Made by a program: the position numbers and the translations under genes. A stretch of DNA of 31,791 nt, from NCBI GenBank assembly GCA_043228905.1, contig JBHGNT010000360.1, positions 1 through 31,791 on the forward strand, written 5' to 3'. This DNA is from Azolla caroliniana (lineage: Eukaryota; Plantae; Polypodiophyta). This document shows positions 8,267-31,693 of this stretch, one piece after another. The notes under the pieces were generated by a model. It saw nothing but the letters and a program-made list of their open reading frames with translations, did not search any database and was not told the origin of the DNA. Each line of letters begins with the position of its first letter. The stretch's first letter is position 1.

Positions 8267-8311
8267 CTTGTCAATGCAATACAGGAGAAATTCAAGCAGA
8301 AGAATATAATT

Positions 8312-9944
8312 ATGAGGAAGGGTTTATGGTCTCCAGACGAGGACGAAAGATTGACAAGATGCATATCTAAGTATATGAATGGCACATGGAGTGACATAGC
8401 CAAGAAAGCTGGTATAGATCACATTGGTCCATCAATTACATTGGTTCATTAAGTGTGTAAATTAAGTAGATTATGAATAATGTTCATTGAGCATGCCAGT
8501 ATTACTGCTCCTTGAATGTGTGCATTAAGTAGACCATGATTAATGTTTATTAAGTGGACTATGGTTAGTGTTCCATTAAGTGCATCACATGATGATTAGT
8601 TTCCAATTTTATTATATGTTCATTAAGTGGATGCCAACAAGTTGCTTTGAATTACTAGACTATGATTAATTGCTAATTTTGTATGAACTACTAGACCATG
8701 TTTAATTGCTATAGGAATTTTTCATTAAATCAAACTTGACACTTGGGGTTTAAATCCCTACGTGGGTGTGCTCAACTCAATTCGACTAGTGGATCGTGAT
8801 TAGGCTTTTTAAATTCTCATGCATACTAAGCTTCAATATGAAATCAACTTTTGCTATTATCAAAATGAAGAGTAGCTACAATATCCCATAAGAAATTTTA
8901 CTAGGCATTTCCTCATTTATACATGATTCATAAATCCAAGTTTGACTTGATAATGTTAATGTACTAGGGATTGATCGTTGTGGGAAGAGTTGTCGAAGGC
9001 GATGGATGAACCATTTGAGGCCGGATTTGAAGAGGGGACGATTCTCACCCATGGAGCTACAGAAGGTGGTGGAATTGCACAAAGTCCTTGGCAACAAGTA
9101 ATTATATATACTTGGCTGTGAAGTTGGCCCAACCACCACCTATAATCATCAATATTGACAATATATTAAGTGTGAAGATTAGTTTGCTAATTTTCAATCT
9201 AATGGAGGACACTCTCTCATGTAAGAGCTTTAATCAATGTTAATCTTATCTAGAATGTGTACACTCATTAATTAAATGTTCCTACGAGGTACTAGATGGT
9301 CCGAGATAGCGATGCACCTTGTAGGACGAACCGACAACGATGTGAAGAATGTGTGGAGCACCCAAATCAAGAGACATTTAAACACATATTACAAGGTGAG
9401 TGAACGAGGAGCGAAATCGGATGCGATTGAAGGAGCAGTTATGGCATCTACCATCCCAGAAAGTTCCTTGTGCACACACAACAATGTGATCACCAATAAG
9501 GTTGACGAGACCACCAACATTAGTGGTGTAGGCAATTTTGCTCCAATGTTATCGACTAATAAACAAACCATGTCTCCTAGAAAAAGCCCCTTAATGGGAG
9601 ATTACATGTTGCAAGATGCGGTTCTTATGTTGCCACCGTTAATGCCAAGCCTTAGTTCAAGTGTGAATGAAGTTGATTCATGCACAACCTCTACTACCGA
9701 ACCTATGATGAGCTATGATCAATCTAGTTCAGATAAATCAATGATCGATATCGATTGGATATTCATGAATAGCTATGATAGCTATTCACAATCTGAATCC
9801 TTAGTGGACCGTCATAGTTTGGTTCCAGATTTATCGCCCCAATATACTAATGCATGGTACACATGTGAAACCCTCGACTTGGCCTCCACAGGCCATTTTG
9901 TGCCAGAATGTTGGACATTTGATTCTTTGGTTGTGGATCTTTAG
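8312..9944 (+). CDS. R2R3-MYB transcription factor, 3 exons: 8312-8411, 8968-9097, 9296-9944 (about 292 aa)
   Basis: Spliced translation: [105 protein letters not shown], followed by a S/T/M-rich C-terminus. GT-AG introns (8412-8967, 9098-9295) sit at the conserved plant R2R3-MYB positions, with the canonical 130-bp second exon. The start codon is the least certain part: 8312 is the first in-frame ATG after the stop at 8141. Confidence 0.93.
8445..8725. repeat. Degenerate minisatellite in MYB intron 1
   Basis: Recurring variants of GTTCATTAAGTG and ATTAAGTAGACCATGATTAAT / CTAGACYATGWTTAATTGCT. Confidence 0.55.
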
Positions 9945-10949: not shown

Positions 10950-13440
10950 ATTTCATCAAATTTCAAGAATTTATAACATATTTACCAAGCACTTCATTTA
11001 AACTATTCGGGTCTTTATGTACATGTAGCTACTCTCCTTGACCAAACTTTCTCCCTCTATTATTCCCACAAGATTTGTGAACAAGACTAACATTTCCTTA
11101 AGTTGTAGACTAGTTTCTTTGACTTATCTTGTGTTGAGTTCATTGACAGTTTGGGTGCCAAGAGTGTTTTGATGATTATGTGCTTGGGCATTCCTCTACA
11201 GAGCTTGAGGACCCAACACTATTCAATTGCTCCGATCTCTGTAATATTGTTGTCTTCCTTAATCAAAGGTTCGATAACTTTCAAGAAAGTCATCAATTTA
11301 GAAGCTTCGTACCCTTGGGTTTGAACCTTGTGGTCCACCCATATGTATTCACCATTCATCATACTTGTAAAACACTTTTCTATCATTTCCTTAAGTTGCG
11401 GACTAGTTTCTTTGACTTATCTTGTGTTGAGTTGATCGATAGTTTGGGTGCCAAGAGTGTTTTGATGATTATATGCTTGGGCATTCCTCTACAGAGCTTG
11501 AGGACCAACCACTATTCAGTTGCTTCGATCTCTGTAATATTGTTGTCTTCCTTAATCAAAGGTTTGATAACTTTCAAGAAAGTCATCAATGTAGAAGCTT
11601 CGTACCCTTGGGTTTGAACCTTGTGGTCCACCCATATGTATTCACCATTCATCATACTTGTAAAACACTTTTCTATCATTTCCTTAAGTTGCGGATTAGT
11701 TTCTTTGACTTATCTTGTGTTGAGTTGATCGATAGTTTGGGTGCCAAGAGTGTTTTGATGATTATATGCTTGGGCATTCCTCTACAGAGCTTGAGGACCC
11801 AACACTTTTCAATTGCTCCGATCTCTGTAATATTGTTGTCTTCCTTAATCAAAGGTTCGATAACTTTCACGAAAGTCATCAATGTAGAAGCTTCGTACCC
11901 TTGGGTTTGAACCTTGTGGTCCACCCATATGTATTCACCATTCATCATACTTGTAAAACACTTTTCTATCATTTCCTTAAGTTGCGGACTAGTTTCTTTG
12001 ACTTATCTTGTGTTGAGTTGATCGATAGTTTGGGTGCCAAGAGTGTTTTGATGATTATGTGCTTGGGCATTCATCTACAGAGCTTGAGGACCCAACACTA
12101 TTCAGTTGCTCTGATCTCTATAATATTGTTGTCTTCCTTAATCAAATGTTCGATAACTTTCAAGAAAGTCATCAATGTAGAAACTTCGTCCCTTGGGTTT
12201 GAACCTTGTGGTCCACCCATATGTATTGACCATTCATCATACTTGTAAAACACTTTTCTATCAAAAGTTAGTTCAACTTTCTTTTCTTCCCCTTTTGCCA
12301 AGTTCATGATGAATGTAGGTTCATATTCAATTTAATCTAAATCCTCATTCGTGGGGGATTCCATACTTAAGTGATACAATCAATTGTGACAATGCCATCA
12401 AATACCAAGAACATGAAGCAATACACTTGCAAATGAACTCATCTTCAGTTTTCATTTATCTTACTCCAACCTTCTTTCCTTGGGTACTAACCTTTATCCA
12501 CTTGATAAATGACACCTTAAGTTTCTCATCTTCTATCCTTTACTTTGGTGTGCCTAATGATTGTCAAGGTTTAAGTCATGGTTTAAATGGGTTTCTAATA
12601 TGATTTCACAAAATTGTCCAGAATGGATTGATGTGTTGAATGAATGTCAACACCAAATTGATTATGCGCATCACATCCTCTATGCTTTCATATCCATCAT
12701 GTTGGGATGGATAAGGACAATCAACCTTTTTGGATCCTTAGTTTTTATTAGCATGCATTACATTTATAGATGATTTGTGAGAATTGTTTGAGCAAATGTC
12801 TTCACCATTGGGAATTTGCTAACACATAACTATCATAAATGAAATTAATAATTTTTAATATTATATCCTATGGCTCAAATCGGTTTCAACTTTCTACCCA
12901 CATGTTGTGAAAAAGCCATAAAGATTTGTTTTGTGAAAGAATAAAACTGAACATGTACCAATAGTGCCATTGGCAAAGACTTACGCATGTCTATTGATTT
13001 CTCGCAAAATTCAAAACAATGATGAAGTGGTTAGAAGACTACATCTAGTAGAGTTGTCATATCAAATACTTTGTGCAAAAACTAATAATAATATATCAAA
13101 TACATTCTATCCCTCTGACGTCACATTTCCGTATGTTGAGTAGATAAGATGTAAATCCATGTTTATCTTGATGCAACCAAGTCCATGGATCAAACTTAAG
13201 AACTTCCAAAGCTAATTGTTTCCAAGCATTTGGCTCAAGGGCATTTACAATCAAGTGTTGAAAGTACAAGTTGATGCATCAATATACATATTGAAGTCAC
13301 CCATGAGCAATGTTGAATGGCCCATTCATAACCATTGGTGAAGGGAAGACATAACTCAATAATTAATACATTGAGTAGCATTGTGATAGGCATAAATGCT
13401 TGCAAAAAATAAAGCCTCATCTAACTAAGCGATTTCTACA
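10950..13440 (-). mobile_element. Highly degenerate LINE ORF2 relic (APE endonuclease plus RT fragments)
   Basis: Minus-strand frames give LFFASIYAY...LLMGDFNM (about 13400-13290), FDPWTWLHQDKHGFT, RDRMYL and SSNHF, matching the LINE endonuclease motifs IYAP / GDFN / FT / RLDR / SDH in the right order. Weaker matches follow: FDGIVTID (PGxDG-like, ~12400) and FYIDD inside the tandem unit. Many stops and frameshifts; boundaries approximate. Confidence 0.62.
11091..12263. repeat. Tandem array, 4 x 293-bp units
   Basis: Units start catttccttaagttg at 11091, 11384, 11677 and 11970. Copies differ by scattered substitutions, and unit 4 has a 1-bp deletion. The 293-bp period matches the ORF track (11180/11473/11766). 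Confidence 0.97.
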
Positions 13441-13785
13441 ACAAAAAATCAACCATAGGGATCATTGTGCACAACAGTGGACAAAAGTTGTCATGCACTA
13501 TCATTACCACACGTGAATAATGATGAGAAAGTTGTGTTGCATAAAATAAAGAATAACCATGCAAGTGGATTATGGTGTCATGGCACATATGTTTAATGAC
13601 ACACAATGTATTCCATTCTCTACTTAAGATAGTTCCCTTGGTATATATATCTTATTTGGGGGCCATGACACACAACTCTTAAATTCCATGACCATTTCCA
13701 TGCAATTAGCGTAATTTAAGTGTTTGTTCTTGTAGAGGCAACTAATTGTATAAAATTATTGAATGTGTTTTTCAAGGATGCATAA

Positions 13786-16170
13786 GGGAAGCAGTAGCCC
13801 TTGCCAAGTGTACCAACAACAAGGTAGCGGTGGTGCTACTAGATTTTGAGAAAGCATATGACAGGGTTTGCTGGAAGTTTCTTGAAAGTGTGATGGGGAA
13901 ACTCGGCTTTCAAGAGACATGGATCAAAGGGATTGCAGTACTTTATAGGAACAACAACAGTTGCATTTCACTGGCAGGTGAAAGGGGTCCCTTTTTCCGA
14001 ATATCCCGATCTATACGACAAGGATGCCCACTAGCTCCATCCTTATTTCTATTATACGCCGAAGCACTCTCTTGCTTTCTCAACTTGCGGCATCTCAACC
14101 TATGTCGTCTTCTCGTGCCTCATTCTCATCGAAGCATCCTAGATATAGAATTTGCAGATGACACAGCGGTCTACCTGCAAGGGGACTTAGAAAACCTAGA
14201 AAAGCTCGAAAGTGGGTTAGCTGTATTTTGCAAGAGATCCAATGCCATGATCAATTGGCACAAATCCTGTGCAATATGGCTTTCTCATGAAACACATCCT
14301 ACGTGGCACCCACATCTCGCTTTCAAAGGGATCAATCAAGGAGCGAGCACCAAATATTTGGGTTTCCAAATTGGTTTCAACATACCGCCGGAGACTATGA
14401 TTGCACCCGTTATCCATTCCATTCGACAAAAGTTGATACATTGGAGTTCGAAATAATTGTTGCTAGCGGGTCGCATCATAGTGGCAAACCAGGTACTATT
14501 TGCAACAACATAGTACAATCTATCATGTTGGACAATCTCCAAGGACAGTATACATGAGATTCAACGACTAGTACGCAACTACATTTGGTCTGGTAAGGAA
14601 GATCATGTAACTCGTGCCAAGGTGGCATGGCCTATACTCACAACACCTAAGTCGAGAGGGGGATTGGGTCTGGTTGATCCCCTCTCACAATCAAAATCCT
14701 TACTTGCCAAATTTGTGGTGCGAGGACTCCAACCAGGAAATGATTGTTGGAAAATGCTACTGTGGTTACATTTCGCTTACTTTAGGCCACGAAAAGGGGT
14801 TAATTGGGCCCCCCAAACGGGATGGATTCTAAATATGGATCTCAAACCTAGTTTCTCCCGCCAATTGGAGGATAGATTCAGTGCATCCATGTGGAAGGCA
14901 TGGTGTGACATTAGACGACGGCTCAAGTGCGATCAACCGAGTCTGAACTTGCCTGGCTCAGTCAACATATCCTATAGAACCCATGTATCAAGGATGAATC
15001 TAATCAACTACTTGGATCAAGTAAGGGGTTGTCATGGGGATACATTGCAGAAGGTCCGGGAAAAAGTATAGAATGTTGGAGAGAGTTTATGTCACTGCCA
15101 CTACAAGATCAAGCCAACATACTCCATGGCATTAGGGGTGGATGGACTATGAGATAGGAAATCAATAACGCTCTACTGATTAGGGAAGCCACTACTCATA
15201 GGACGACAATGGAGAAATGGATAGGATACGAGGAGGAGGGATCTTTGATCCGGAGAGGTAGGGGATCACCAGACAAGATCAAAGGCTCTGAATTGCGAGA
15301 CACTGAGACACCAACACAGAATAACACAATTTGAGTACTCGCGTATACTGGTCATAAATGGATTGTAGATCCTGATCCGATCAAAGTACAACCCGATTGG
15401 CACATATGTACTCATGAAAACACATGGCTATGTAAGGTCAGTTGGGACCCTTTGCAATGGACATGGCGTGATCCTTATGCGGAGCAAGGAAGCAAACCCA
15501 TCCCTTTCTTCCAATTCACAACTAGATTGGGTCACCACATCCTAGCTACTCAAATTGCCTGAGAGCCGGCTACTGCAAAGGTCTGGCACACATATCAAGT
15601 TCCTCACACAATTATCACCAAGTTTTGGCAGAAAATCTGGAAACAACAACACGCAAGGTGAATTACCACGTTCCAATGGCAATTAATACATAAATCACTA
15701 TCCGAGTTGGCAGATACGAGCATCAAGAGGGGGGGATGACTTTGGTGATAAAATCACAAGAGGTTTTTTCTCCACCATCGGCAATGTCCACTCAACTCCT
15801 CTTAATGACAAATCTCAAGTTGTGTTGGAATTGGTCACCCCAATAACTCTTTGGATTCTATGGAAACAACAGTGTAGACGGGTCTTCTCCAACCAAATCG
15901 CGCATCCAACAATGTTACTACAAGAGATATGGAGTGAAATTGTAGCCACTCTAAAGAGCCAATATGATGGCCTCAAGGGCAGCTCCGATGGAGTTAAAAG
16001 ACAACGAGTAGCCTTCATCCAACAATGGTTGTCCTCTCCCTTTCTTGAGTCAGTGGGCATCCACATAAGATGGAACTATCACATCCCTACAGGGATTTGT
16101 ATATAATCATCTCATTTGTAAAATTTTATAACTAATGGAAGGAGTTTTTTTTTGGAAAAAAGAAGAAGAA
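13786..16170 (+). mobile_element. 5'-truncated, decayed L1/Tx1-like LINE (RT plus C-terminal region)
   Basis: RT motifs VLLDFEKAYDRVCW, SIRQGCPLAPSLF, EFADDT and KYLGF. These are followed by VAWPILTTPKSRGGLGL, FWQKIWK...FQWQLIHKSL (zf-RVT-like) and LWILWKQQCRRVFS. ORF ends at 16106; A-rich tail at about 16156-16170. Premature stops (e.g. 14454) and frameshifts; no TSD found. Confidence 0.92.
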
Positions 16171-16207: not shown

Positions 16208-16916
16208 ATCCTTGACAAAGATAATCTTGAAACAATGCATTACTCCTTCAAGTGCAATTTGATCCTTTAGGTCGGGTTGTACATTCACCCATTTCTCAAG
16301 GATCTTACATTTGAGGGCCCAAACATAAGGTCTCAATACTTGCATGGAAATCTTTATGGCAAGGCCCTCCAATGTGAGACCCTTGAGCATTAGGCAATCG
16401 TACAACCCGACCCAAAAAATAAAATTGCCATTAAAGGTAACAATCGGCAACGGTTCGGTTCGAGAGGGTCAAAACCGAACCATTAAAAATTTTAGAAACC
16501 TGAACCGAACCGAACCACAAAACTGTTAAACCAAACCATTAGAAAATTTTCAAACTGTTAAGCCATTAAACTGGTAAAACTGCGGTTTTGTGGTTCGGTT
16601 CCATTTTCAACTTGGGTCAAATTTTAAATTTTAAAATATTTCATTATTTAAATTTTCAAAAGTTTAAATATTTTCCTAAAATGTGAGAATGAGGCATTAA
16701 AATGGAAAGATTGTTTAAAAACTTTTTTTTACAATTTTTTTAAAATAAAATTAAAAATAAAAAACCGTTAAACCGTTTAAAAACCGAACCTTTAAACATA
16801 AACCCGAACCATTTAAACCGTTATGCCACGGTTTCGTGGTTCGGTTCAAACCGAACCATTGCCAATTGTTAATTAAAGGGGCAACCCACTATTTCAAGAT
16901 TATCTATCTCAAGGAT
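16208..16916. mobile_element. Older foldback (palindromic MITE-like) element of about 270 bp, interrupted by the hAT MITE
   Basis: With the hAT insert removed, the arms pair along their length: atccttgacaaagataatcttgaaa / tttcaagattatctatctcaaggat; gtcgggttgta / tacaacccgac; ctcaaggatcttacatttgagggcc / ggccctccaatgtgagacccttgag. Centre at about 16340. Confidence 0.78.
16438..16871. mobile_element. Non-autonomous hAT-type element (MITE), 434 bp
   Basis: 26-bp TIRs taacaatcggcaacggttcggttcga / tcaaaccgaaccattgccaattgtta (3 mismatches). Perfect 8-bp TSD ATTAAAGG (16430-16437 and 16872-16879). About 14 subterminal AACCG/CGGTT motifs; AT-rich core. Confidence 0.93.
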
Positions 16917-19336
16917 TATTCTTGGGATCCTCCCTCAATCTTGAATCTCTTTTCAAGAGTGACTATTAGTACCTACCTCCTTACTTTCCTTGCACATCAT
17001 GTCACTATTTCTCCTCAAAGTTATTCTCTTTTGGCATGATAGCTAGTTGTTTTTCATTATTAGGACCGTGACTTCAAGTTTGATTATCATTGCTATACAT
17101 ACCTTAGATTTTCCTTTACTCATGAATCATAAACACGTCAACAATTGACAATCCAACATTTGCCCCCCATTTTCTTCCTTCCTTCCTAGCCTCGTCAATA
17201 AGGACCTCCATTGATGGGAGGTACATGTTGGTATTCAACCATTAGTGTCCCCATTTACCACATTCAAAACAATGACCTACAAATGTCTCCACTTCAATTT
17301 AAAACAATGTTATTTCATTCCAAGTGTATTCATATGCAATCTTACGATTTCTGTCATGTATCATGTGAAATTAACGTTTATTTGATGAATTGGCTTACGA
17401 TGTCATGAGAATTATGCCCTTGTATGTGAATGTTGAACACGAGAAGATGGCTTTGTTGATGACACTAGTGATGAAGGGTTGGGGTTATGGATTTCTCTTC
17501 TATCTTTGAAAAGTGGATATGCAGGTTATTTCTACATATATGTATATTAGGATACACAAAAAAGTTTATATGATCTTATGGCATCACACTTGTGTAAATG
17601 TACGAGAATAGATGTGAATGTGTTGTGAATGTGTGAAAGGGGAAAGAAGAAAATAGTGTAAAACCTAGATGTGGAGTGTCTGGGTGACTTTGGTCATTGG
17701 TTGTCGGTGTCAGGCTACATTCACATTAGTGGATTGCACATTCTTCTTTTCTTTTCTTCTCCGCTACTCCTTGTTCGCCAACAGAGAAGCACTTGAATTG
17801 GTATTTTGACCAAAGTTAAATGTTGTTTGGTCAAACAAATATGATGTTGCAAGTTTGAATCTTGCCATTTGTTAAATTTTGTTTCTTTGTAATTTCTTCC
17901 CTAGCACTCGAAATTTCAACCAAAAGCTTTTGTTGCATTCCTTGTGGAAACCATTAGATGATGGTACATTGATTGATCCAAATCCAACCTCCTACAAAAT
18001 TAAGGCACATTTGAGTGTAGTTTTTACTCTGACACATGCTTCATGCTTGTTTATTAACCTTTCACATTATGATCCAATTGCCAATTACATCTCTTACCTC
18101 GTGAGTCATGTGTTTACATTGTTTAAAAAAATCCTTTTCTCACTATTTCTTCAATACTCGGTAGTCCTAATCTATTGTGCAATTGTGTGTAGGGTAGGAG
18201 TCCCTCTTTGAAATCTTTGGAGGTGTCTAAGCTTCTAATTTAGCAATATAACCCAATGGTTGCGCCCTATACTAGTATTGAGGTTATCGGTTTGCCCTTA
18301 GGCATGTGTTGGTTTAGTTAGAGTATCCAAAATCAACTATGCTTAAGAAACTGAAATTAGGTTGCAACTTTGTGCCACCCTTGACTCCTTGTTAATGACT
18401 TTTGGAAGTGCTACATGGCATGAGTACGTTTATTATATCCTTTTGTTATAATCCCATGCACACTAACAACTACTTAAGTTTCTTTCGCCCGTGTGCAGTG
18501 ATTTGTTTGGGAGGTGTGGGGCTAACGTCCATTGATGGTTAAGAATGTGAGTCTTGCTTTAGGACCCATTGTGATTTTGGCGTTTTTTTGGGCCATGATG
18601 TTTTGGTAATGACCTTAGACCTTACATATTTTGACAGTTGAACAAACAAGATTTCAATTTCTTTCTCAACAACCTTGGGCTCCTCAAGGACATCTAGAAG
18701 TTTGGTTTCTAAGGTGATGTGTTCTATGACCATGTCAATATATTCCAATGTGTTAGTTGAGAAAGCATTAGCATGATGACCTACATTCAAGTATAGCTCT
18801 CTTTGTAACCTTGTTGTCAACCACCCTTGCATAGGTTTTGTTTCTATTCTGAACTCTTTGTCAAATTGTATTCCTTTATTTTCATTTTCTATGATGGGCC
18901 TAAAAACTGAATAGGTCACAGGGCTTCCCAACTAACATATTATGTCTCTACTTTTTTTGAAATATTTGTATAAAGCCTTCTCATGAAAGGCATCATGTGT
19001 TGGGTTAAGGAAAATCCTTCACATTAAGCGTTCATGAGAAATCCTTCGCAGGAAACTGTCTTGAGAAATCCTTCACATCTAGTCTTCATGTGAAAGGTTT
19101 TATGTGTTAGCATTGAGAAAAGCCTTCATGTGGTGTGCATAACCATAACTAAGCATGAGATAGATTTTCCGCAATTTTCCCTAATCTTATGATAAGTGAT
19201 AGAAATTTCCAATTTTACAAGTCTATGATGGAACCTAGAAACTACCTTGAGCATGTGCACCACAAACCAACCTCGGTCTCATGGACTAATAGAACAAGTG
19301 TTCAAATCGATGAGGAATATGCTTTAACCTTATGGG

Positions 19337-19800
19337 TGTCGTGACTTGAGAATAGGAGAGAGAAAAATAAGAGGACAGTAGAAGGTAGAGGGAGAGAGAG
19401 AGAGAAAGAACACTAGAAATGGAAAGAGAGTTTATATTATAAGAGAACAAGGATTACAAAGAGTAGGCTAAGGGGCTACAAACTGCTGTTGAACCGAATG
19501 AGTTGTGATGAATGAATAGACACCTATTTATAGGTCCTTATGGAGTATTCTAGAATGTTCTAGAATATTTTAGATATTTATGATATTTAATATAATCATG
19601 GAATATCCTAGAATGTTCTAGAATACTCTAGGTTGTTCTGGAATACTCTAGAATGTTCTAGAATACTCTAAATGTCTTGTAATAACTAATAATACATTTA
19701 TTATAACTATACATCATATATGTTAGTATAATGGTTAAAGGTTTAACATATAGACCAAGACGTCTTGGGCTTGAATCCTTGTAAGGCCAAAATGTATGTC
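19337..19800 (-). repeat. 3' LTR, truncated at its inner end
   Basis: Matches the 5' LTR with about 9 substitutions counted by eye, one 20-bp indel and a shorter GA run. Lacks the terminal bases present at 25195-25203 and abuts chromodomain coding sequence directly. Confidence 0.95.
19546..19670 (-). promoter_or_regulatory. Heat-shock element arrays in U3 of the 3' LTR
   Basis: Same arrays as the 5' LTR, with two additional 10-bp units (distal array 19600-19670). Confidence 0.72.
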
Positions 19801-22800
19801 ATGCAGCAACCATTTCGAAGGCATTAGCAAGATTCTCAAGAGGTTCCCATGTTCGATCATTAGGTGTATAACCTAACCAGTCAACCAAATAATACAGTTT
19901 GTTGTGAACGATCTTGGAGTCAAGAATGGCAACAACTTCATATTTGGAGCCATTCGAAACTTCAATTGGAGGTGGGGGAGATGTAAGACGGCCTGGAATA
20001 GAGCTAGTTGTGTACGGCTCCAAAAGTGAAACATGGAAGACCGGGTGAAGATGCATATGAGGGGGAAGATCAAGGCGAAATGCTACATCATTGATCTTAC
20101 CAGATATCACATATGGGCCAAAACGTTGATAATCCAATTTGCAACAAGGTCGGGTTGTTTTAATGCGACCTTGTAAAAGCCATACTCAATCCCCCACTTG
20201 AAACGTAGTCGATGAAACACATCGATGACGGTCGGCAACCTTCTTTTGAGTGTTTTGAGCATCACATAAATGGTGCAAAAGGATATCTTGAACTTCTTGG
20301 AGTTGGGTGAGCCGATCTTCAACAGCCAGGTTTGTTGGGAGTTCGAGATGTTCAAGCATAGTCCAACGAGGATGGTACCCAATGTTTGCAAAAAATGGGG
20401 AATATCCAGTAGAAGAATGTTCTGAGTTGTTGTAAGCAAATTCCGCCAAATGTAATAGATCAACCCAATCATCTTGTTGATAGTTGACAAAACAACGAAG
20501 ATATTGTTCTACTGTTTGGTTGGTGCGCTCACTCTGTCCGTTAGTTTCTGGATGGTAGCCGGAAGAGAGTTTGCAAGAAGTATGTAAGAGTTTGAACATG
20601 TGCCACCAAAATTTTGAGATGAACTGGGGACCCCGATCATTGATAATATCATTAGGAAGACCATGATGCCGAAACACCTCTCGCATGAGTAACTCGGCTG
20701 TCTCTTGGCTCGTAATGGCCTTTGTGCAGGGAAGAAAATGTGTCATCTTGGTAAAACGATCTACTACCGTGAGAATAGAATCAAAACCCTTGGAACGTGG
20801 TAGATCCGTAATGAACTCCAATGAAATAGATTTCCATGGACAAGCCATATGGATGATGTCGAGGTTTTTTGGATCGGCAACATGTATCACAACTACAAAC
20901 ATAATCCGTAACAAAATGGCGAAGTTGTGGCCACCAATACCTTCGAGAAATTAGCACCAAAGTCTTGTGGATTCCAAAATGTCCAGCCATTGGTGTATCA
21001 TGACATTGTTGCAAAACTTGGAGTCGAGAAGGACCATCAGACACATATAAGAGATTTTGTCGAAAAAGTAAACCATCATGCCAATTGAACTGGTTGTAGT
21101 CTTGACGAGGATTTTGAGATTGTGAACAAGAAGCACGATCTGGGATAATATGGTTCAGAATATCTTGGGCGAATTCATCAGTCTCAATATGCTCCCGAAT
21201 GGAGTCTAGAAGACTTGAATCCTCCGATGTGTCTATAGCATGAAAAGCCATTAGTTGAAGACGGTCAGGACCCAAGAGGATTTGCTTCTAACTTTCAAAT
21301 GCGGCCTCTCCTGGTTGAAGTTCCATATATGAACGCCGAGATAAAGCATCTGCTTTGCCGTGTTGCGTCCCAGGGCAATATAGAATTACGAAATCAAAAC
21401 AAGTTAAAAATTGTGCCCAACGAGCTTGTCGACGACTCAAGACTCGAGCACTTTGGAAGTACGTTAGATTTTTGTGATCATTATAGACAATGATTTGTTG
21501 AGACGAACCCTCCAAAAAATGACGCCATTGTTGAAAAGAATCCATAATGGCAAGAAGCTCTTTGTCGTGAATCTCATAGTTGATTTCTGCAGCTTCGAAT
21601 TTTTGTGAATGAAAAGCCACAGGGTGCAGTTGGCCATCATTGCTAATCTGTGATAATACGCTTCCTAGTGCGAAGTCAGATGCATCAACTTCCAGTATAA
21701 AGCGCTTCAATGGATCAACATGCATCAAAATTGGTACGGATGTAAATGCTTGCTTTAATCCTTCAAATGCAGAGTTTGCATTTATACTCCACACAAATGG
21801 TTGATTCTTTTGTGTCAATTGAGTGAGGGGCAATACGATCTTTGAATCATCTTTGATGAACTTGCAATAAAAGTTTGCGAACCCTAAAAAACATTGTACA
21901 TCTCGCATAGACTGTGGTGTTTGCCAATCCAAAACTGTTTGAACCTTTGCTGGATCCATAGAGATGTGATGCGAAGAGACTATGTACCCCAAAAATTCCA
22001 CTTGACGCTGGTCAAAACTACACTTCTCCAATTTTGCATAGAGACCATATTCACGCAACCGTTGCAAAGCTTGTCGAACGTGTATATCATGATCCTCTTG
22101 AGTTTTTGAGTAGATCAAGATATCATCTAAGTAAATTATGACGAAAATATCGAGGAAAACTTGAAAAATGTCATTCGCCATATGTTGGAAAACTGTTGGT
22201 GCATTCGTGAGATCAAATGGCATCACTGTATACTCAAAATGGCCATAGCGAGTACGAAAAGCAGTCTTCCATTCATCCCCAGGACGAATTCAAACAAGAT
22301 TGTAAGCACCTCGAAGATCTAACTTTGTGAAATACTTAGCTCCATTGAGGCGTTCCAGAAGGCTCGAAATCAGTGGTAGAGCATATCGGTTTCGAATAGT
22401 TACTTTATTCAATCCTTGATAATCCACGACCAGACAAAGTGAACCATCTTTCTTCTTAACGAAAAATATGGGTGCGTCGGCAGGAGATCTTGAATGTTGG
22501 ATAAACCTATTCGCCAAGTTCTCATCGATATATTCCCGAAGAACCTCTAACTCCGTGGGTGAAAGGTTATAAATTGGCCCCCATGGAGGATCTTTTCCGG
22601 GCTGCAAATCAGTCGGGCAATCATATGGTCGATGCTCTGGTAGTCTATTGGCCTTCACCTTATCAAAAACATCGGAGAATTCTATATATTTCTTCGGTAG
22701 TTGGACCCCCGATTCTTGTGAGCTCGATGTGGGAGTTGCTAAAACTGCGAACACCAACATGTCTTCCTTCCGTCCTTCCTCACATAATTGATGTATAGAG

Positions 22801-23321
22801 ATTGTCGAAATCTTTGTCATATCCTTTGTTGGAGTTTTAAGAGGCTCAAACTGTATTGTGACTTCAATGGTTCTTTTTCTCCAATCAATAGTTGGGTTAT
22901 GTAGCTCAAACCATGGAAGACCAAGAACTAGGGAGTGCTCTGGACTACTAATGATGTTGAATGAGATGACACTAGCCAAATTGCCTAGGACTACATGAAT
23001 TGGTTCAGACTCTTCAACTATATCACCTGATGCTATGGGGCGTCCATCAATGACTCCGACTGACACTGGGCTTGGGAGCTTATGCAACTGAATATTATGC
23101 ATTACAGCAAACTCACGATCCATGAAACAAGAGTTGGCTCCAGAGTCTAAGAGGGCAAAAGTTGGGACTCAATGGCACCTAGATGTGTTAAGCTCAACTT
23201 GTGCAGAGAAAACTAGACTAACTTGACCGGATGAAATGGAACCACAACTAGGGACGGACGTTACATGCCTAGGGCTGTCCAACCAAATGGCTCCGATTTT
23301 GGCCGGACTTACTCGTTTAAC
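19799..23321 (-). pseudogene. pol: Retrotransposon pol (protease, RT, RNase H, integrase, chromodomain), disrupted
   Basis: Protease ALLDSGA (DSGA at 23147-23136). RT: KLDLRGAYNLV, MPFDLTNAP, IYLDDILIYS. RNase H: EVDASDFALG, DKELLAI, ADALSR. Integrase: HDTPMAGH..C..C, NDRGPQF, GQSERTNQ, GPY. Chromodomain YEVVAILD...YLVDWLGY...TWEP. Several stops and frameshifts. Confidence 0.96.
23277..23321 (-). other. Putative -1 programmed ribosomal frameshift signal (gag/pol)
   Basis: G_TTA_AAC (23321-23315) in the gag frame, then a 6-nt spacer containing the gag stop, then an 11-bp stem GTCCGGCCAAA/TTTGGTTGGAC. The -1 frame is the protease frame. Confidence 0.75.
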
Positions 23322-24627
23322 ACATCATCTAATTGGCTCAAGACATCAAATGTATTTTTATGACAGGGACTACTAGGCCTACTTGGGTTACGAGAAGGCG
23401 GGGCAGAAATTGAGATGGGATTGTCATGAGCACTTATTTGGTTAACTTGTCGTCGTGGTTTATGTGGACAATTCACAACAATATGCCCTGGACCACCACA
23501 ATAGAGGCATAGACGATTCGCTCGTCGTCGTTGCTTTTCAGCATCCGATAATGGTCCTCGACGTTGTGTTGTCTCGATTTCCATTGGAGTAGGTCCTTCC
23601 ACCACACTTGACTTTGATACTTGGGGTGGAGTTGCAACCACCAAAGCATATGTTTCTGTTGGTCGAAAGTGTAACATTTGTTGGCGCTCAGAATGCCGCT
23701 CAAATAAGCGATTGTCACATCGCACGGCCCAGCTTACTGCTTCAGTAAGAGATTTTGGATCATCATGGAAGGTAAGAAGTAAATCCTTCACATCATTGCG
23801 TAGACCTTGACGAAATTGGTCCATTAATGTTACCTCGTCCCATGGAATATCACATGCTAGAAGGTGAAAATCTGCAGCATAAGCGGAAGCAGGACGATCT
23901 CCTTGTCGTAATCGCTAAATTTTGTTTATTGCAGTCCTCATACTATCAGTGTCTCCAAAGTTGGCTTGGAACTCATTAATAAACCCTTCAAAATCTTCTA
24001 ATAATGGTGAGTGCTTCTCTAGGAGTGGTGCAAACCACGCTAATGCGGTACCCGTTAACAAGGTACCAACTAGACCCACACGAGCAACATCAGTTGGGTA
24101 ACGGCTAGGATGCAATTTAATCACAAGTCGTACCTGATTTAAAAATCCACGAAATTGAGACCTTGTACCATCAAACTTGGCCAACAGACTAATCTTGGGT
24201 TCCTTCGGCGAGGTTTGAACTTCCGCCGCTTGTCGTTGCAATAGAGTAGTCTCCAATTGATGCACCCGTTGAGATAATTCTTCATATTGTTAGTTGGGTA
24301 ACGGCTAGGATGCAATTTAATCACAAGTCGTACCTGATTTAAAAATCCACGAAATTGAGACCTTGTACCATCAAACTTGGCCAACAGACTAATCTTGGGT
24401 TCCTTCGGCGAGGTTTGAACTTCCGCCGCTTGTCGTTGCAATAGAGTAGTCTCCAATTGATGCACCCGTTGAGATAATTCTTCATATTGTTGTACTTTCT
24501 CAGCACTTACTTGTTGTAGGTCTCCCATCAATCTTTGATTTTCATGCTCTAGTGCCACGAATTTGGTTGTTAGCATTTCGAGCTCGGAGAGAACACGCAT
24601 ATATTCTTGCTTGCTAATGGACTCCAT
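23309..24627 (-). pseudogene. gag: Retrotransposon gag (coiled-coil N-terminus, capsid, CCHC knuckle), disrupted
   Basis: EPKISLLAKFDGTRSQFRGFLNQVRL, RLRQG, FRQGLRNDVKD, GPTPMEI and LCLYCGGPGHIVVNC. Broken by a 200-bp duplication and an in-frame stop at 23915. Confidence 0.93.
24092..24491. repeat. Perfect 2 x 200-bp tandem duplication within gag
   Basis: agttgggtaacggctagg...ttcatattgtt at 24092-24291 and 24292-24491; no differences seen. Confidence 0.96.
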
Positions 24628-24707
24628 AGTTGCGATAGAAAATTGCTAGATTTGGTTGAATAAGGTTAAGATAAGAAGAAGAAGTTGGAGAAGAAGAAAA
24701 GAGATAG

Positions 24708-24718
24708 ATTCAGTTCAA
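24708..24718 (-). other. Primer-binding site, self-priming (Tf1) type
   Basis: TTGAACTGAAT lies 2 nt inside the 5' LTR and has no TGG tRNA-type start. It is complementary (one G:U pair) to ATTCGGTTCAA at 24913-24903, 33 nt downstream of the TATA start. Confidence 0.78.
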
Positions 24719-24720
24719 AC

Positions 24721-24771
24721 TGTCGTGACTTGAGAATAGGAGAGAGAAAAATAAGATGACAATAGAAGGTA

Positions 24772-24823
<52 letters not shown>

Positions 24824-25203
24824 ACACTAGAAATGGAAAGAGAATTTATATTATAAGAGAGCAAGGATTACAAAGAGTAGGCTAAGGGGCTACAAACTGC
24901 TGTTGAACCGAATGAGTTGTGATGAATGAATAGACACCTATTTATAGGTCCTTATGGAGTATTCTAGAATGTTCTAGAATATTTTAGATATTTATGATAT
25001 TTAATATAATCATGGAATATCCTAGAATGTTCTAGAATACTCTAGAATGTTCTAGAATACGCTAAATATCTTATAATAACTAATAATACATTTATTATAA
25101 CTATGCATCATATATGTTAGTATAATGGTTAAAGGTCTAACATATAGACCAAGACGTCTTGGGCTTGAATCCTTGTAAGGCCAAAATGTATGTCGTCATG
25201 ACA
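24721..25203 (-). repeat. 5' LTR (483 bp)
   Basis: Direct repeat of 19337-19800 with intact inverted termini. TATAAATA on the minus strand at 24946-24939; expanded (GA)n at about 24776-24818. Confidence 0.97.
24956..25060 (-). promoter_or_regulatory. Heat-shock element arrays in U3 of the 5' LTR
   Basis: aTTCtaGAAtgTTCtaGAAt (24961-24980) and gGAAtaTCCtaGAAtgTTCtaGAAtaCTCtaGAAtgTTCtaGAAt (25014-25058) are alternating nGAAn pentamers in phase, 15-110 bp upstream of the TATA box. Confidence 0.75.
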
Positions 25204-26593
25204 ATGGGAACAATAACTTCCTTTTATCGAATTTTCTCCAAACATACATCAATTGGATTTAGTCCTTTGATGTTGATGTATTATTCTAGCAACAAACCTC
25301 GTTAAAGGTTAGCATTCATCATGATGAGTCATACATACCATAAACTAAGGGATATGTAAATATATCTTGCATATTGCATGATTCAAGTTAAGGCCTCTAC
25401 TGCATACCACAATTTTACGCCAAGTAACATTAGCAATATCATGCATTTAGCCTTACTTGAAAGTTATTTCTATGTGTATTTCTAAACTCTAAGACTTTGC
25501 ATGTAAGTGCACTAAACCATGTGTATTTCTAAACTCCGAGATTTTGTCTACAAATAAGTATGAAAGCCCCAAAAGTTTATAGACTTCACAATCCCCAAAT
25601 GCATTGGTTCATTTACTAATTGATTAACCTTCTAATTGGCAAAAGACATCAAAATTCATTGCAAGAATTGGATCTTTTAAAGTGAGGCAGCATGTTACAT
25701 GCATAACTATAGCTTATCATCGTATAAGTTTTTCGTAATTTTCCTTAACCTTACGATAAGTATGTGTGGGTTGATTTCGAAAGGGATGAAGGTATCTATT
25801 GAATTACAATTATATGATGTGAGATAACTACTAAATGTGTTATCAATTGACCACTTCACATGAAGTAGTCAAGTATATGAACACACTAAGGCCCAAGCTT
25901 TCTATCTATGACAAAAGACTAGCTAAGTTCTTATCAAAAGAGGTTTGACTTATGTTGAGTTTATTTTAGTGTAGCTATATGGTTGTTAGCTATGCTCGTG
26001 CAATCCTTACAAAACCGAAGGCAAGGTACAACTTGTATCAACGCTTGATGATATGGAACATCAAGGTGGTTCAGGTTCATCTCACATTGTCATTGAGGGG
26101 TAATCTAGTTTGAAGCTTTCTAACATTTATTCTTAATTTGAAACTTTGAAATATATACTCTTTTTTCTATGTGTTGAGATAAGTGTGCATAAATATGTAC
26201 GTTTGTATGCATGTTCATTGGCATGCCTGTGTAATTCACTTATACACTCCCTTGGCTACCCCAATTGTTGCGAGGAAGCAAAATGTGAGGCTCGTATTAA
26301 CTACAAATGAAACAAACAATTGCAGTTAAGGCCTCGGTCACTAGTCTTCGGGTGTTTGAGAAGCAAATGGAGGCGAACATCTAGCTGACACTTGAGAGGT
26401 GGCCCTCCCTAGGGGAATTGCATAGTTTCCATGTCCCTTATCATCTTTTCTATCAATGTCTCTTACTAGGGTCCAATCAGCCACTATAGTTTCTGCCCAT
26501 TGCCTTCCATTCCCAACCTTGGTTTGTTGCCAATCGGATTCCTTCTATTCTTCTCCTCATCGAATTTATATTGTTTTCACCATTATATTCAAT

Positions 26594-26730: not shown

Positions 26731-28329
26731 ATTTGAGAGGTTTCCTTAATGGTTTAAAGCATCCTTTTACCTAATTCATAATCTTGGGACTGAGAATGGG
26801 GTCAGCAATCACAATCTCAAACTCATCATCACCTCCCGATCACTCAAAACCTGCAAGAAATATAGCATTTAATATATGAAAAGAGGAAACATTTGCTGTA
26901 GCAATATATAGAACTAAAAACATGTAAGAGAAAGGATTTGTACAAGCTCTCAAGGTCAAGCACCACAAAAGATAAGACATCCTGTTCAGAAACAAATACA
27001 TACATACTTTAGATGGTGTCACAAATCAAAATATGTCTTTAGTTAAAGTCACAAACAAAAATACAACAGTGTTAGTATCACATATCAATACAGGCCCACA
27101 TGTTAGTTCTAGGATATACTACTAGCTATTCTATAAAGGATATAACTGAAATCAAACTTGCAAAATTACCATACCTTTACTTCACTAAGCCACTAGCTGG
27201 TATAACATAGACAGGTTAGGAATGAGGCACAATAGGTTTTGTTTGTGGTAACAGTCTCAATTTGCCCCTTTCATGTGCTCAATTCTTCTATTGAAGTTTC
27301 CAATCACATATCTGAGGTGAGGAGCCACTAGTTATGCTCATAACTGGACAACACAATTTCCCCATTTCTACAAATAGAAAAATGTCGAGAACAGTTATTT
27401 AAACTGGCAGTCTTCTTGTCGGATGAACAAAAATAAAATAAAAGTTTGATGAATAATCTAACAATAACACATGAACTCGGATATCAAACAGTGCTGCGTA
27501 GCATTGGCATACAAACTTAAATGAAAAACTTATTATCGCCACAAAACTAAAATAAAATACTAAAAGTGTACTAACAAGTAAACAAGAAATACTCCGAACA
27601 AACGAACGAAGAAACTATATTGGAGACACAATATGTAGCATGAGAAAAACATGATTATATATGAACCAATGCACAAAAGTGTGAGAATCACCTTTTCCAT
27701 GCCTAATGCATGTTGGACTCTTAGAAAAAAAGAAAGGATTTTCTGGAACATTGTAGATGGAAACAACCTATTTGTTTTACAATGCATCTGGGGTAAGTAA
27801 AGTATGCAAGGGATTTTTCTAGAAAATTCTAGATGCTTGTATGATAATTATGTAACCCTAAACTCTTCTTGAAAAACAATATATTTATCATATTTTTATG
27901 GTCCTCACAACTTCCTCTTGCCATGATGTCGATATTGAGCTAGAGCCGGAGTAGTTAAACTAAGTGTGTAAGGATGAAATCAATGATTAATCCTGTTGAG
28001 AGAATACTTCCCAATTATAAACAAAATATACTCAAACATTAATCCTGTTTAGAGAATCCTGATTAATCTCTCAAACATTAGATTCTTTATGATCATCACT
28101 CTCAAATGGAGGAGATCACAATATAAGATTCTACACCAACTTACTTAATCACACACATATCTTAAAATCTAGCACTTAAGCAATTAATCACTTAAAAATT
28201 CTGATGTAATCATTGAATTATGGCCAATTTTGGTCTTAGAAGACGTTAATATGTCTTTCTTTCTTTCTATCTATCTCTTTCACTCATGTTCTTACACATA
28301 AAGTTTTGATACATCTCGCATCCTGAAGA

Positions 28330-28640
28330 TTGCAGATCCATTCAAGATGGAAGAGGGCAATTGAATCAACATATAATGACAAGCTTCAAGATATATCTTT
28401 AAGAGTAAAGAGAGTTCAGGATTACCGTCACCAATCTGAGGTACCTCTAAGGTATGACAGCAAGAATATTGGATGATTTTGGACAAGATCTTGCTTGAAA
28501 CATTGAGGAGAGGGACAATACTACGTGTGCCTGTGTCTTCCACCATGTCGATTGATGATCCGTGACTCGAAAGCCACCAAGATCTCTTCCACCTAGAAGA
28601 GCTCATTATCAGAGGCGCTGAGGTTCCCCTTATTTTCTTT
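28330..28640 (-). mobile_element. Small, very degenerate LINE RT fragment
   Basis: RSIVPLLNVSSKILSKII resembles RPISLLNxxYKIxxKI, and SLLLKIYLEA resembles LLKLDFEKA, in the correct order with deletions between them. Confidence 0.45.
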
Positions 28641-31363: not shown

Positions 31364-31693
31364 ATGGTTTATCAATCCTTTACTCCTGACAATGTCAAGG
31401 GCCTTGCCCTCGCCTTAAGCTCTTGCATCTTCATTGGATCTAGCTTTATCATGAAAAAGAAAGGTCTCAAGAAAGCCGGTACCCTTGGTCTCTCAGCAGG
31501 TATACAAACATACTACTAACACACGCACACACACTTCTAATCTGTTTATGTTTTGTCTGAATGCATGAATTATGTATATGCATCATGTTGATCTCACATC
31601 ACTTTGTATGTTTCTGTTGTAAAAATATACTTATAGACTCTGGAGGTCATTCATACTTGCTGGAACCTCTTTGGTGGGCTGGAATGCTGACAA
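31364..31693 (+). CDS. NIPA: NIPA-family (DMT superfamily) probable magnesium transporter, exons 1-2 (31364-31499, 31637-31693); 3'-partial
   Basis: Spliced translation [64 protein letters not shown] matches the plant NIPA N-terminus (DNxxGLxLAxSSxxFIGxSFIxKKKGL...YLxEPxWWxGM). GT-AG intron 31500-31636; next donor GTAAGT at 31694. The symbol is family-level only. Confidence 0.93.

What the first reader, a model, noticed from the sequence alone, without database searches (positions are those of the whole stretch)
24708..24946. tRNA-independent self-priming site: PBS complementary to the predicted first 11 nt of the element's own RNA
Seen: the sequence after the 5' LTR (GTTTGAACTGAAT) lacks the TGG of a tRNA PBS. 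Its 11-mer pairs with ATTCGGTTCAA in the LTR (10 Watson-Crick pairs plus one G:U), which starts 33 nt after TATAAATA, where a TSS is expected. Established: S. pombe Tf1 primes reverse transcription with the first 11 nt of its own mRNA, released by RNase H. Inference: this plant element uses the same mechanism and its TSS is at or near 24913.
Basis: partly seen in the sequence, partly recalled or inferred. Interest (0 to 1): 0.72.

Follow-up and report, generated by a model that had tools for sequence, protein, structure and literature searches.

The report
Self-priming Tcn1 retrotransposon, probably in fern
A dead plant jumping gene has no tRNA primer site, and the bases after its left repeat pair with the predicted start of its own RNA, with matching changes in relatives, so it likely primes its own copying, a trick already predicted in print for this group in mosses and spikemosses and seen here in what is probably a fern.

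Summary
Observation confirmed. The site lies in a decayed 5.87-kb Ty3/gypsy chromovirus (minus strand, LTRs 25203-24721 and about 19800-19337, 5-bp target duplication). The 11-mer two bases after the 5' LTR pairs with an LTR 11-mer 33 nt after TATAAATA; 4 of 1000 shuffled LTRs match as well. The G:U is this copy's own change: 88-96% of related contig depth in 7 of 8 runs gives 11 Watson-Crick pairs. Relatives change both sides together (L013, L014, L015, L040), and the published Selaginella SM-Tcn1 shows the same layout with 15 pairs. The element is a Tcn1-clade member of the Tf1/sushi group, for which self-priming is already predicted (83% of 1500 elements, Neumann 2019). The scan noted the same in moss genomes before. 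Not shown: the start site, RNase H cleavage, or Tf1's three-duplex structure. Small additions: covariation evidence, a constant 2-nt spacer, and a probable fern host (about 0.75), where the papers read report Tcn1 as absent. New member of a known kind; interest 0.3.

The parts
25204..25208 (-). 5' copy of the 5-bp target-site duplication (CCCAT)
   Evidence: same 5-mer follows the 3' LTR at 19336-19332
24721..25203 (-). 5' LTR, 483 bp, TG...CA with a short terminal inverted repeat
   Evidence: related contigs run on into a purine tract exactly at 25203 (loose ends)
24939..24946 (-). TATA box (TATAAATA), predicted promoter
   Evidence: a TATA-like box lies 32-33 nt before the paired block also in L013, L014, L015, L039
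24903..24913 (-). predicted first 11 nt of the element RNA (self-primer), preceded by C so that +1 is a pyrimidine-purine step
   Evidence: nearly invariant across family contigs; start site inferred, not mapped
24719..24720 (-). 2-nt spacer (GT) between LTR end and PBS
   Evidence: GT also in L013, L014, L015, L018, L040 and SM-Tcn1
24708..24718 (-). primer-binding site complementary to the LTR 11-mer; 24712 differs from most family copies
23309..24627 (-). gag, broken by a 200-bp tandem duplication (24092-24491) and a stop; carries a CCHC knuckle
   Evidence: Ty3_capsid, Retrotrans_gag, DUF4939
23276..23321 (-). gag/pol overlap: GTTAAAC heptamer followed by an 11-bp stem, candidate -1 frameshift signal
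   Evidence: same layout in L013 and L018; function inferred
19799..23282 (-). pol (protease motif, RT, RNase H, integrase, chromodomain); 5 stops and 1 frameshift against P0001
19337..19800 (-). 3' LTR; its first bases, the PPT and the chromodomain end are missing (about 90 bp relative to L039)
   Evidence: 9 substitutions in 444 aligned positions against the 5' LTR (edge mismatch left out)
19332..19336 (-). 3' copy of the target-site duplication (CCCAT)

Best explanation
This is the primer-binding site of a decayed Tcn1-clade chromovirus whose family likely starts minus-strand DNA synthesis with the 5' end of its own RNA instead of a tRNA. Shown: no TGG, an 11-bp duplex between the PBS and an LTR block 33 nt after a TATA box, conservation of that duplex in the family and compensatory change in relatives. 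Inferred: transcription starts at or within a few bases of 24913; the first 11-12 nt fold back onto the PBS; the element's RNase H cuts after the conserved CAA, as in Tf1; RT extends the freed 3' end through the GT spacer into U5, so the cDNA would carry two extra bases beyond the LTR's CA that integrase would have to trim. This copy itself is dead (stops, frameshift, duplicated gag stretch, lost PPT).
For: Duplex and null test. Family contigs give 11 of 11 Watson-Crick pairs: G at 24712 in 88-96% of summed contig depth in 7 of 8 runs, the eighth not covering the site. In one search the only other listed change inside the two 11-mers is 24910 at up to 3%, while neighbours 24893, 24895 and 24900 differ in 67-100%. 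L013 and L014 (79% and 77% RT-RNase H identity) each have 12 Watson-Crick pairs with different letters; own primer/PBS pairs score 11, 11, 10, 10 of 11 for L013, L014, L015 (3' LTR copy) and L040, against 4-9 for cross pairs. 34 chance hits forced to share the outer anchors matched 2.35 of the next 8 positions on average, longest run 6. Predicted pairing probability of the 11 pairs is 0.63-1.0. SM-Tcn1 has the same CA-GT-TTG and CAA-CACCAG frame with 15 pairs, read by eye from its published sequence. Tcn1 elements are predicted self-primers, and Tf1 self-priming is established (PMC7175516 passage).
Against: No start-site or cDNA data. The two flanking duplexes that Tf1 needs are not conserved: no helix of 5 bp or more downstream of the PBS in 2 of 5 folded leaders (this copy, L014), and different, weak helices in the rest. 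The whole leader is no more stable than shuffles (z -1.09, 27 of 200 as good). L018 (9 WC + 1 G:U of 11) and the 5' LTR of L015 (8 WC + 2 G:U) pair less well. This copy's primer pairs as well with the L018 PBS as with its own (10 and 10). The host tRNA set could not be searched.
Confidence: 0.88

Rival explanations
1. A host tRNA fragment primes: the primer-side sequence contains GGTTCAA, which resembles the tRNA T-loop (recalled consensus), so a tRNA cut near position 58 could bind the PBS.
For: T-loop-like letters in this family, L013 and L018. Half-tRNA priming exists in plant Copia lineages.
Against: L014, L015, L040 and SM-Tcn1 lack the GGTTC motif yet keep full complementarity to their own LTR; each would need a different tRNA plus a chance LTR match. 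Neumann 2019 found half-tRNA priming only in Ty1/copia. No Rfam tRNA match at 24500-25300.
Confidence: 0.04
2. The duplex is real but transcription starts further upstream, and the primer is cut out of a longer 5' end or supplied by a second RNA copy, so the route differs from Tf1 in detail.
For: Duplex length varies from 10 to 15 bp among relatives; the Tf1 three-duplex structure is not evident; L013, L014 and L018 have a small inverted repeat across the predicted start.
Against: The TATA-to-duplex distance stays at 32-33 nt in five elements, each with a C before the first paired A, as expected if the duplex starts at +1.
Confidence: 0.06
3. The match is chance or a structural leader helix unrelated to priming.
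For: An 11-mer with one G:U is short, and the leader as a whole folds no better than shuffles.
Against: 4 of 1000 and 0 of 805 in the null tests; fixed position 2 nt after the LTR in 15 of 19 elements examined; no other primer site; compensatory changes.
Confidence: 0.02

Closest known systems
Plant chromovirus|Tcn1 clade (REXdb; Neumann et al. 2019, PMC6317226, passages and Additional file 5), including SM-Tcn1 of Selaginella moellendorffii (Novikova et al. 2010, PMC2864245, passages and supplement S3)
   Same: Chromodomain, 5-bp TSD, about 6 kb, overlapping gag and pol, pyrimidine-rich leader, no tRNA PBS, PBS complementary to the LTR. RT 86 of 104 residues identical to SM-Tcn1 (counted by eye); same CA-GT-TTG and CAA-CACCAG frame.
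   Different: Host is probably a fern, whereas both papers give mosses and Selaginella only, and the 2010 PCR survey of 26 ferns and horsetails found none. Different primer letters. The 2010 paper saw no self-priming signal in SM-Tcn1, though its deposited sequence has a 15-bp one.
Tf1/Tf2 of Schizosaccharomyces pombe and the Tf1/sushi group (Tj1, Tosmo1-3, Tcry1, Cryptococcus Tcn1); seen through passages of PMC7175516, PMC4600332 and bioRxiv 2022.12.06.519325
   Same: Chromovirus; 11-nt LTR block after a TATA box complementary to the PBS; RNase H present.
   Different: Mechanism is shown for Tf1, only predicted here. The two flanking duplexes of the Tf1 'pretzel' are not conserved here. A 2-nt spacer separates LTR and PBS (that Tf1's PBS abuts its LTR is recalled, not checked).
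TAR lineage of plant Ty1/copia (Houba, Osr-1), predicted self-priming in 89%
   Same: Predicted tRNA-independent priming in plants.
   Different: Copia domain order, no chromodomain; separate lineage.

Membership tests
Ty3/gypsy chromovirus | gag-PR-RT-RH-INT order with a C-terminal chromodomain, LTRs and TSD | tested here: met
   Pfam RVT_1, RT_RNaseH, Integrase_H2C2, rve, SH3_Tf2-1, Chromo in that order; LTRs and 5-bp TSD
Tcn1 clade | RT/RNase H groups with Tcn1 references | tested here: met
   RT 86 of 104 identical to SM-Tcn1 by eye. Quick tree (careful search unfinished, SH-aLRT only) nests it in a 37-row group (94) with chytrid and mucoralean elements, apart from seed-plant, Closterium and vertebrate rows. 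No named Tcn1 sequence was in the tree.
Tcn1 clade | group I chromodomain with aromatic cage | tested here: inconclusive
   KYEV...YLVDWLGY is present and nearly matches SM-Tcn1; cage positions judged by eye and from recall, not by alignment to the reference set
Tcn1 clade | overlapping gag and pol frames, 5-bp TSD, 5.5-9.4 kb | tested here: met
   element spans 5867 bp
Self-priming (Tf1-type) | no tRNA PBS; 10 or more nt 0-5 nt after the 5' LTR complementary to the LTR (Neumann's criterion) | tested here: met
   11 pairs with one G:U in this copy, 11 Watson-Crick in most family contigs; a strict perfect-match search would miss this copy (longest perfect run 6)
Self-priming (Tf1-type) | complementary block is the 5' end of the RNA | not testable with these tools
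   No RNA raw reads listed; only TATA spacing and the C-A step support it
Self-priming (Tf1-type) | three-duplex 'pretzel' structure around the PBS | tested here: inconclusive
   A 6-bp U5 helix stacks on the duplex in this copy, but no downstream helix in this copy or L014; helices differ among 5 leaders
Self-priming (Tf1-type) | RNase H cleavage frees the primer | not testable with these tools
   biochemical step
tRNA-primed LTR element | PBS starting TGG, complementary to a tRNA 3' end | tested here: not met
   no TGG in 31 nt after the LTR; host tRNA set not available

The most novel reading that the evidence does not exclude
Self-priming Tcn1 chromoviruses form an abundant, diversified family in a fern lineage where published surveys found none, and they prime through a bare 11-15-bp duplex in a fixed CAA-CACCAG / CA-GT-TTG frame shared with Selaginella and a distant relative (L040), without the Tf1 pretzel and with a 2-nt cDNA overhang.
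Probability: 0.4. Interest if true: 0.45.

Novelty: new member of a known kind. Interest (0 to 1): 0.3.

Why it matters
Self-priming in plants has been predicted from complementarity; five literature searches here listed no experimental test in a plant. The compensatory changes add comparative support and fix the likely cut site (after CAA) and start site, which makes the plant case directly testable. If the host is a fern, the patchy range of Tcn1 (mosses, Selaginella, fungi) that underlies the horizontal-transfer argument has to include ferns. The mechanism itself is not new.

Tried and rejected
No host genome is held, so no copy-by-copy survey and no host tRNA search. No RNA holder was listed; both read-laying runs used contigs, which cannot show a start site; the one 'RNA?' run laid was judged probably DNA by the tool. 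ARAGORN found no tRNA in the window. Rfam gave only sub-threshold miRNA-like hits on the U3 palindromic repeats. The sigma-70 scan is irrelevant to a plant promoter. Pattern scans of viral contigs returned 34 hits with no extended pairing, used as a chance control; I did not check whether any is a retroelement. Of 91 protein-found loci, 18 with definable LTR ends were scored; L042, L090 and L091 were dropped because their ends did not resolve, and circular or partial contigs were not scored except L040. The L074 row was mis-anchored by one base and is ignored (one search gives 11 pairs). MYB searches did not name the host. The NIPA exon's named best hits were angiosperms and Selaginella, no fern. 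Short SM-Tcn1 peptide motifs matched none of the fetched proteins. The careful tree did not finish. Searches for Tcn1 in ferns listed no report, but one search was swamped by unrelated fern papers. Unseen files that may bear on novelty: Additional files 1 and 3 of PMC6317226 (too large), the .doc supplements of PMC2864245, and the Figshare tables of PMC8282616, which include two Salviniales ferns classified with REXdb.

Full report
The element. The finding lies at the left end of an LTR retrotransposon on the minus strand. Two LTR copies align over 444 positions with 9 substitutions. The 5' LTR runs 25203-24721 and the 3' LTR ends at 19337, with CCCAT on both flanks. Related contigs continue into a purine tract exactly at 25203, which fixes the LTR start independently. 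Pfam finds capsid, RT, RNase H, integrase, SH3 and chromodomain in gypsy order. The copy is dead: a 200-bp duplication and a stop in gag, 5 stops and a frameshift in pol, and a deletion of about 90 bp, relative to L039, that removed the chromodomain end, the PPT and the first bases of the 3' LTR.

The observation. Every coordinate checks. After the LTR's CA come GT and then an 11-mer that pairs with 24913-24903 through 10 Watson-Crick pairs and one G:U, 33 nt after TATAAATA. There is no TGG in the 31 nt after the LTR. 4 of 1000 shuffled LTRs and 0 of 805 internal 30-mers gave as good a duplex. Folding 24913-24628 puts the 11 pairs in the minimum-energy structure with probabilities 0.63-1.0, although the leader as a whole is no more stable than shuffles (27 of 200 as good).

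Conservation in the family. Contigs from 8 of the 22 listed runs were laid on the region. Seven cover 24712, and in each 88-96% of the summed contig depth has G on the plus strand, which makes the G:U a G-C pair. The change sits in a CpG, so decay in this copy is the likely cause (inference). In one search, which listed differences from 2% up, the only other change inside either 11-mer is 24910 at up to 3%, while 24893, 24895 and 24900 differ in 67-100%. Contig depth is not a copy count and the two sites are not phased.

Covariation. Of 91 loci found with the Pol protein, 18 had definable LTR ends; with the window that gives 19 elements. Nine have 10-12 contiguous pairs, nine have 8-9, and one (L015) has 6 but 10 of 11 against its 3' LTR copy. 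The duplex starts 2 nt after the LTR in 15 of 19. The closest relatives are the most telling. L013 pairs ATTCCGGTTCAA with TTGAACCGGAAT and L014 pairs AATTCGAATCAA with TTGATTCGAATT, 12 of 12 each. Own pairs score 11, 11, 10 and 10 of 11 for L013, L014, L015 and L040, cross pairs 4-9. Against the reading: L018 and the L015 5' LTR pair less well, and this copy's primer fits the L018 PBS as well as its own. A control of 34 chance hits forced to share the outer anchors matched 2.35 of the next 8 positions, longest run 6. In the window, L013, L014, L015 and L039 a TATA-like box lies 32-33 nt before the first paired base, which is an A after a C; L018 has a changed TATA and L040 no exact one.

Clade. 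The published SM-Tcn1 sequence (PMC2864245 supplement S3, read whole) has RT 86 of 104 residues identical to this copy, counted by eye, and similar gag and chromodomain. Its LTR ends at 496, then GT, then a PBS that pairs over 15 bp with LTR bases 392-406, followed by CACCAG as in L013 and L014. That paper's text says no evidence of self-priming was found. A quick RT-RNase H tree of 64 rows (careful search unfinished, SH-aLRT only) places the window in a 26-row group of unnamed sequences (98), inside a 37-row group (94) with Powellomyces and Cunninghamella elements, away from Tanacetum, Closterium and vertebrate rows. No named Tcn1 sequence was in that tree.

Mechanism. Shown here: duplex, position, conservation, compensatory change, no tRNA site. 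Established elsewhere: Tf1's first 11 bases pair with its PBS and RNase H cuts between bases 11 and 12 (PMC7175516 passage; the primary papers were not read). Inferred here: a start at about 24913, a cut after CAA, extension through the GT spacer, and a 2-nt overhang; relatives also have a few non-purine-tract bases between PPT and TG. Tf1 needs two more duplexes (bioRxiv 2022.12.06.519325 passage). I found a 6-bp U5 helix stacking on the duplex in this copy, but no downstream helix here or in L014, and unlike helices in the other three leaders folded, so that feature is inconclusive. A tRNA T-loop fragment as primer is unlikely because L014, L015, L040 and SM-Tcn1 lose the T-loop-like letters but keep the LTR match. 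The host tRNA set could not be searched.

Host. The window holds an R2R3-MYB gene, a NIPA transporter exon and a LINE, so the host is a land plant. Earlier scan notes on this genome suggested a fern (unchecked). As a test I searched the neighbouring LINE RT and looked up 16 of the 150 listed hits, chosen among the best and longer ones: 8 carry names, 7 Adiantum nelumboides and 1 Selaginella, at 37-43% identity. The NIPA exon named only angiosperms and Selaginella among plants. Fern is probable (about 0.75), not shown.

What is known. Neumann et al. 2019 (passages and Additional file 5) predict self-priming for 83% of 1500 Tcn1 elements and place the clade in mosses and club-mosses only. Novikova et al. 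2010 (passages) found no Tcn1 in 26 ferns and horsetails. PMC3350952, PMC4600332, PMC13469084 and PMC8282616 were seen as passages, the last also as supplement rows. Searches listed no report of Tcn1 in ferns, but the PMC8282616 data set includes two Salviniales ferns and its tables were not seen. The scan reported the same layout before in moss genomes.

Verdict. The additions are covariation evidence, the overlooked duplex in SM-Tcn1, and a probable fern host. New member of a known kind, interest 0.3.

Noticed in passing
window 23321-23276 (-); L013 5637; L018 2204: GTTAAAC heptamer, 6-nt spacer and an 11-bp stem at the gag/pol overlap, conserved in 3 of 5 elements scanned; candidate -1 frameshift signal.
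   Followed up: partly
PMC2864245 supplement S3, SM-Tcn1 bases 392-406 and 499-513: A 15-bp LTR/PBS complement in an element for which the paper reported no self-priming evidence.
   Followed up: yes
window 19336-19332 and L039 about 1010-1014: Both 3' LTRs of this family are followed by CCCAT, at different insertion sites; chance or a target preference (n = 2).
   Followed up: no
L013 4295-4325, L014 4480-4500, L018 765-790: A short inverted repeat (TGAACC...GGTTCA or TCGAA...TTCGA) spans the predicted start site; absent in the window copy.
   Followed up: no
window 24942-25064: U3 holds palindromic TTCTAGAA-type repeats that vary in number between the two LTRs and give sub-threshold miRNA-like Rfam hits.
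   Followed up: partly
window 8311-9944 (+): Three-exon R2R3-MYB gene with unusual repeat residues and no named close relative.
   Followed up: partly
window 13746-16106 (+): Decayed LINE whose named closest hits are Adiantum proteins.
   Followed up: yes
window 11087-12265: Four tandem copies of a 293-bp unit, with no Pfam match in the one plus-strand frame scanned.
   Followed up: no
window 16208-16916: Nested inverted repeats around an AACCG/CGGTT-rich stretch, MITE- or DNA-transposon-like.
   Followed up: no
window 28292-28639 (-) and 31364-31498 (+): A decayed SKP1-like fragment and the first exon of a NIPA magnesium transporter.
   Followed up: partly
L016, L019, L021-L023, L027, L061, L069; L057, L074, L085, L088: Two other chromovirus groups from metagenomes, each with its own 8-12-bp LTR/PBS complement 1-2 nt after the LTR.
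   Followed up: partly
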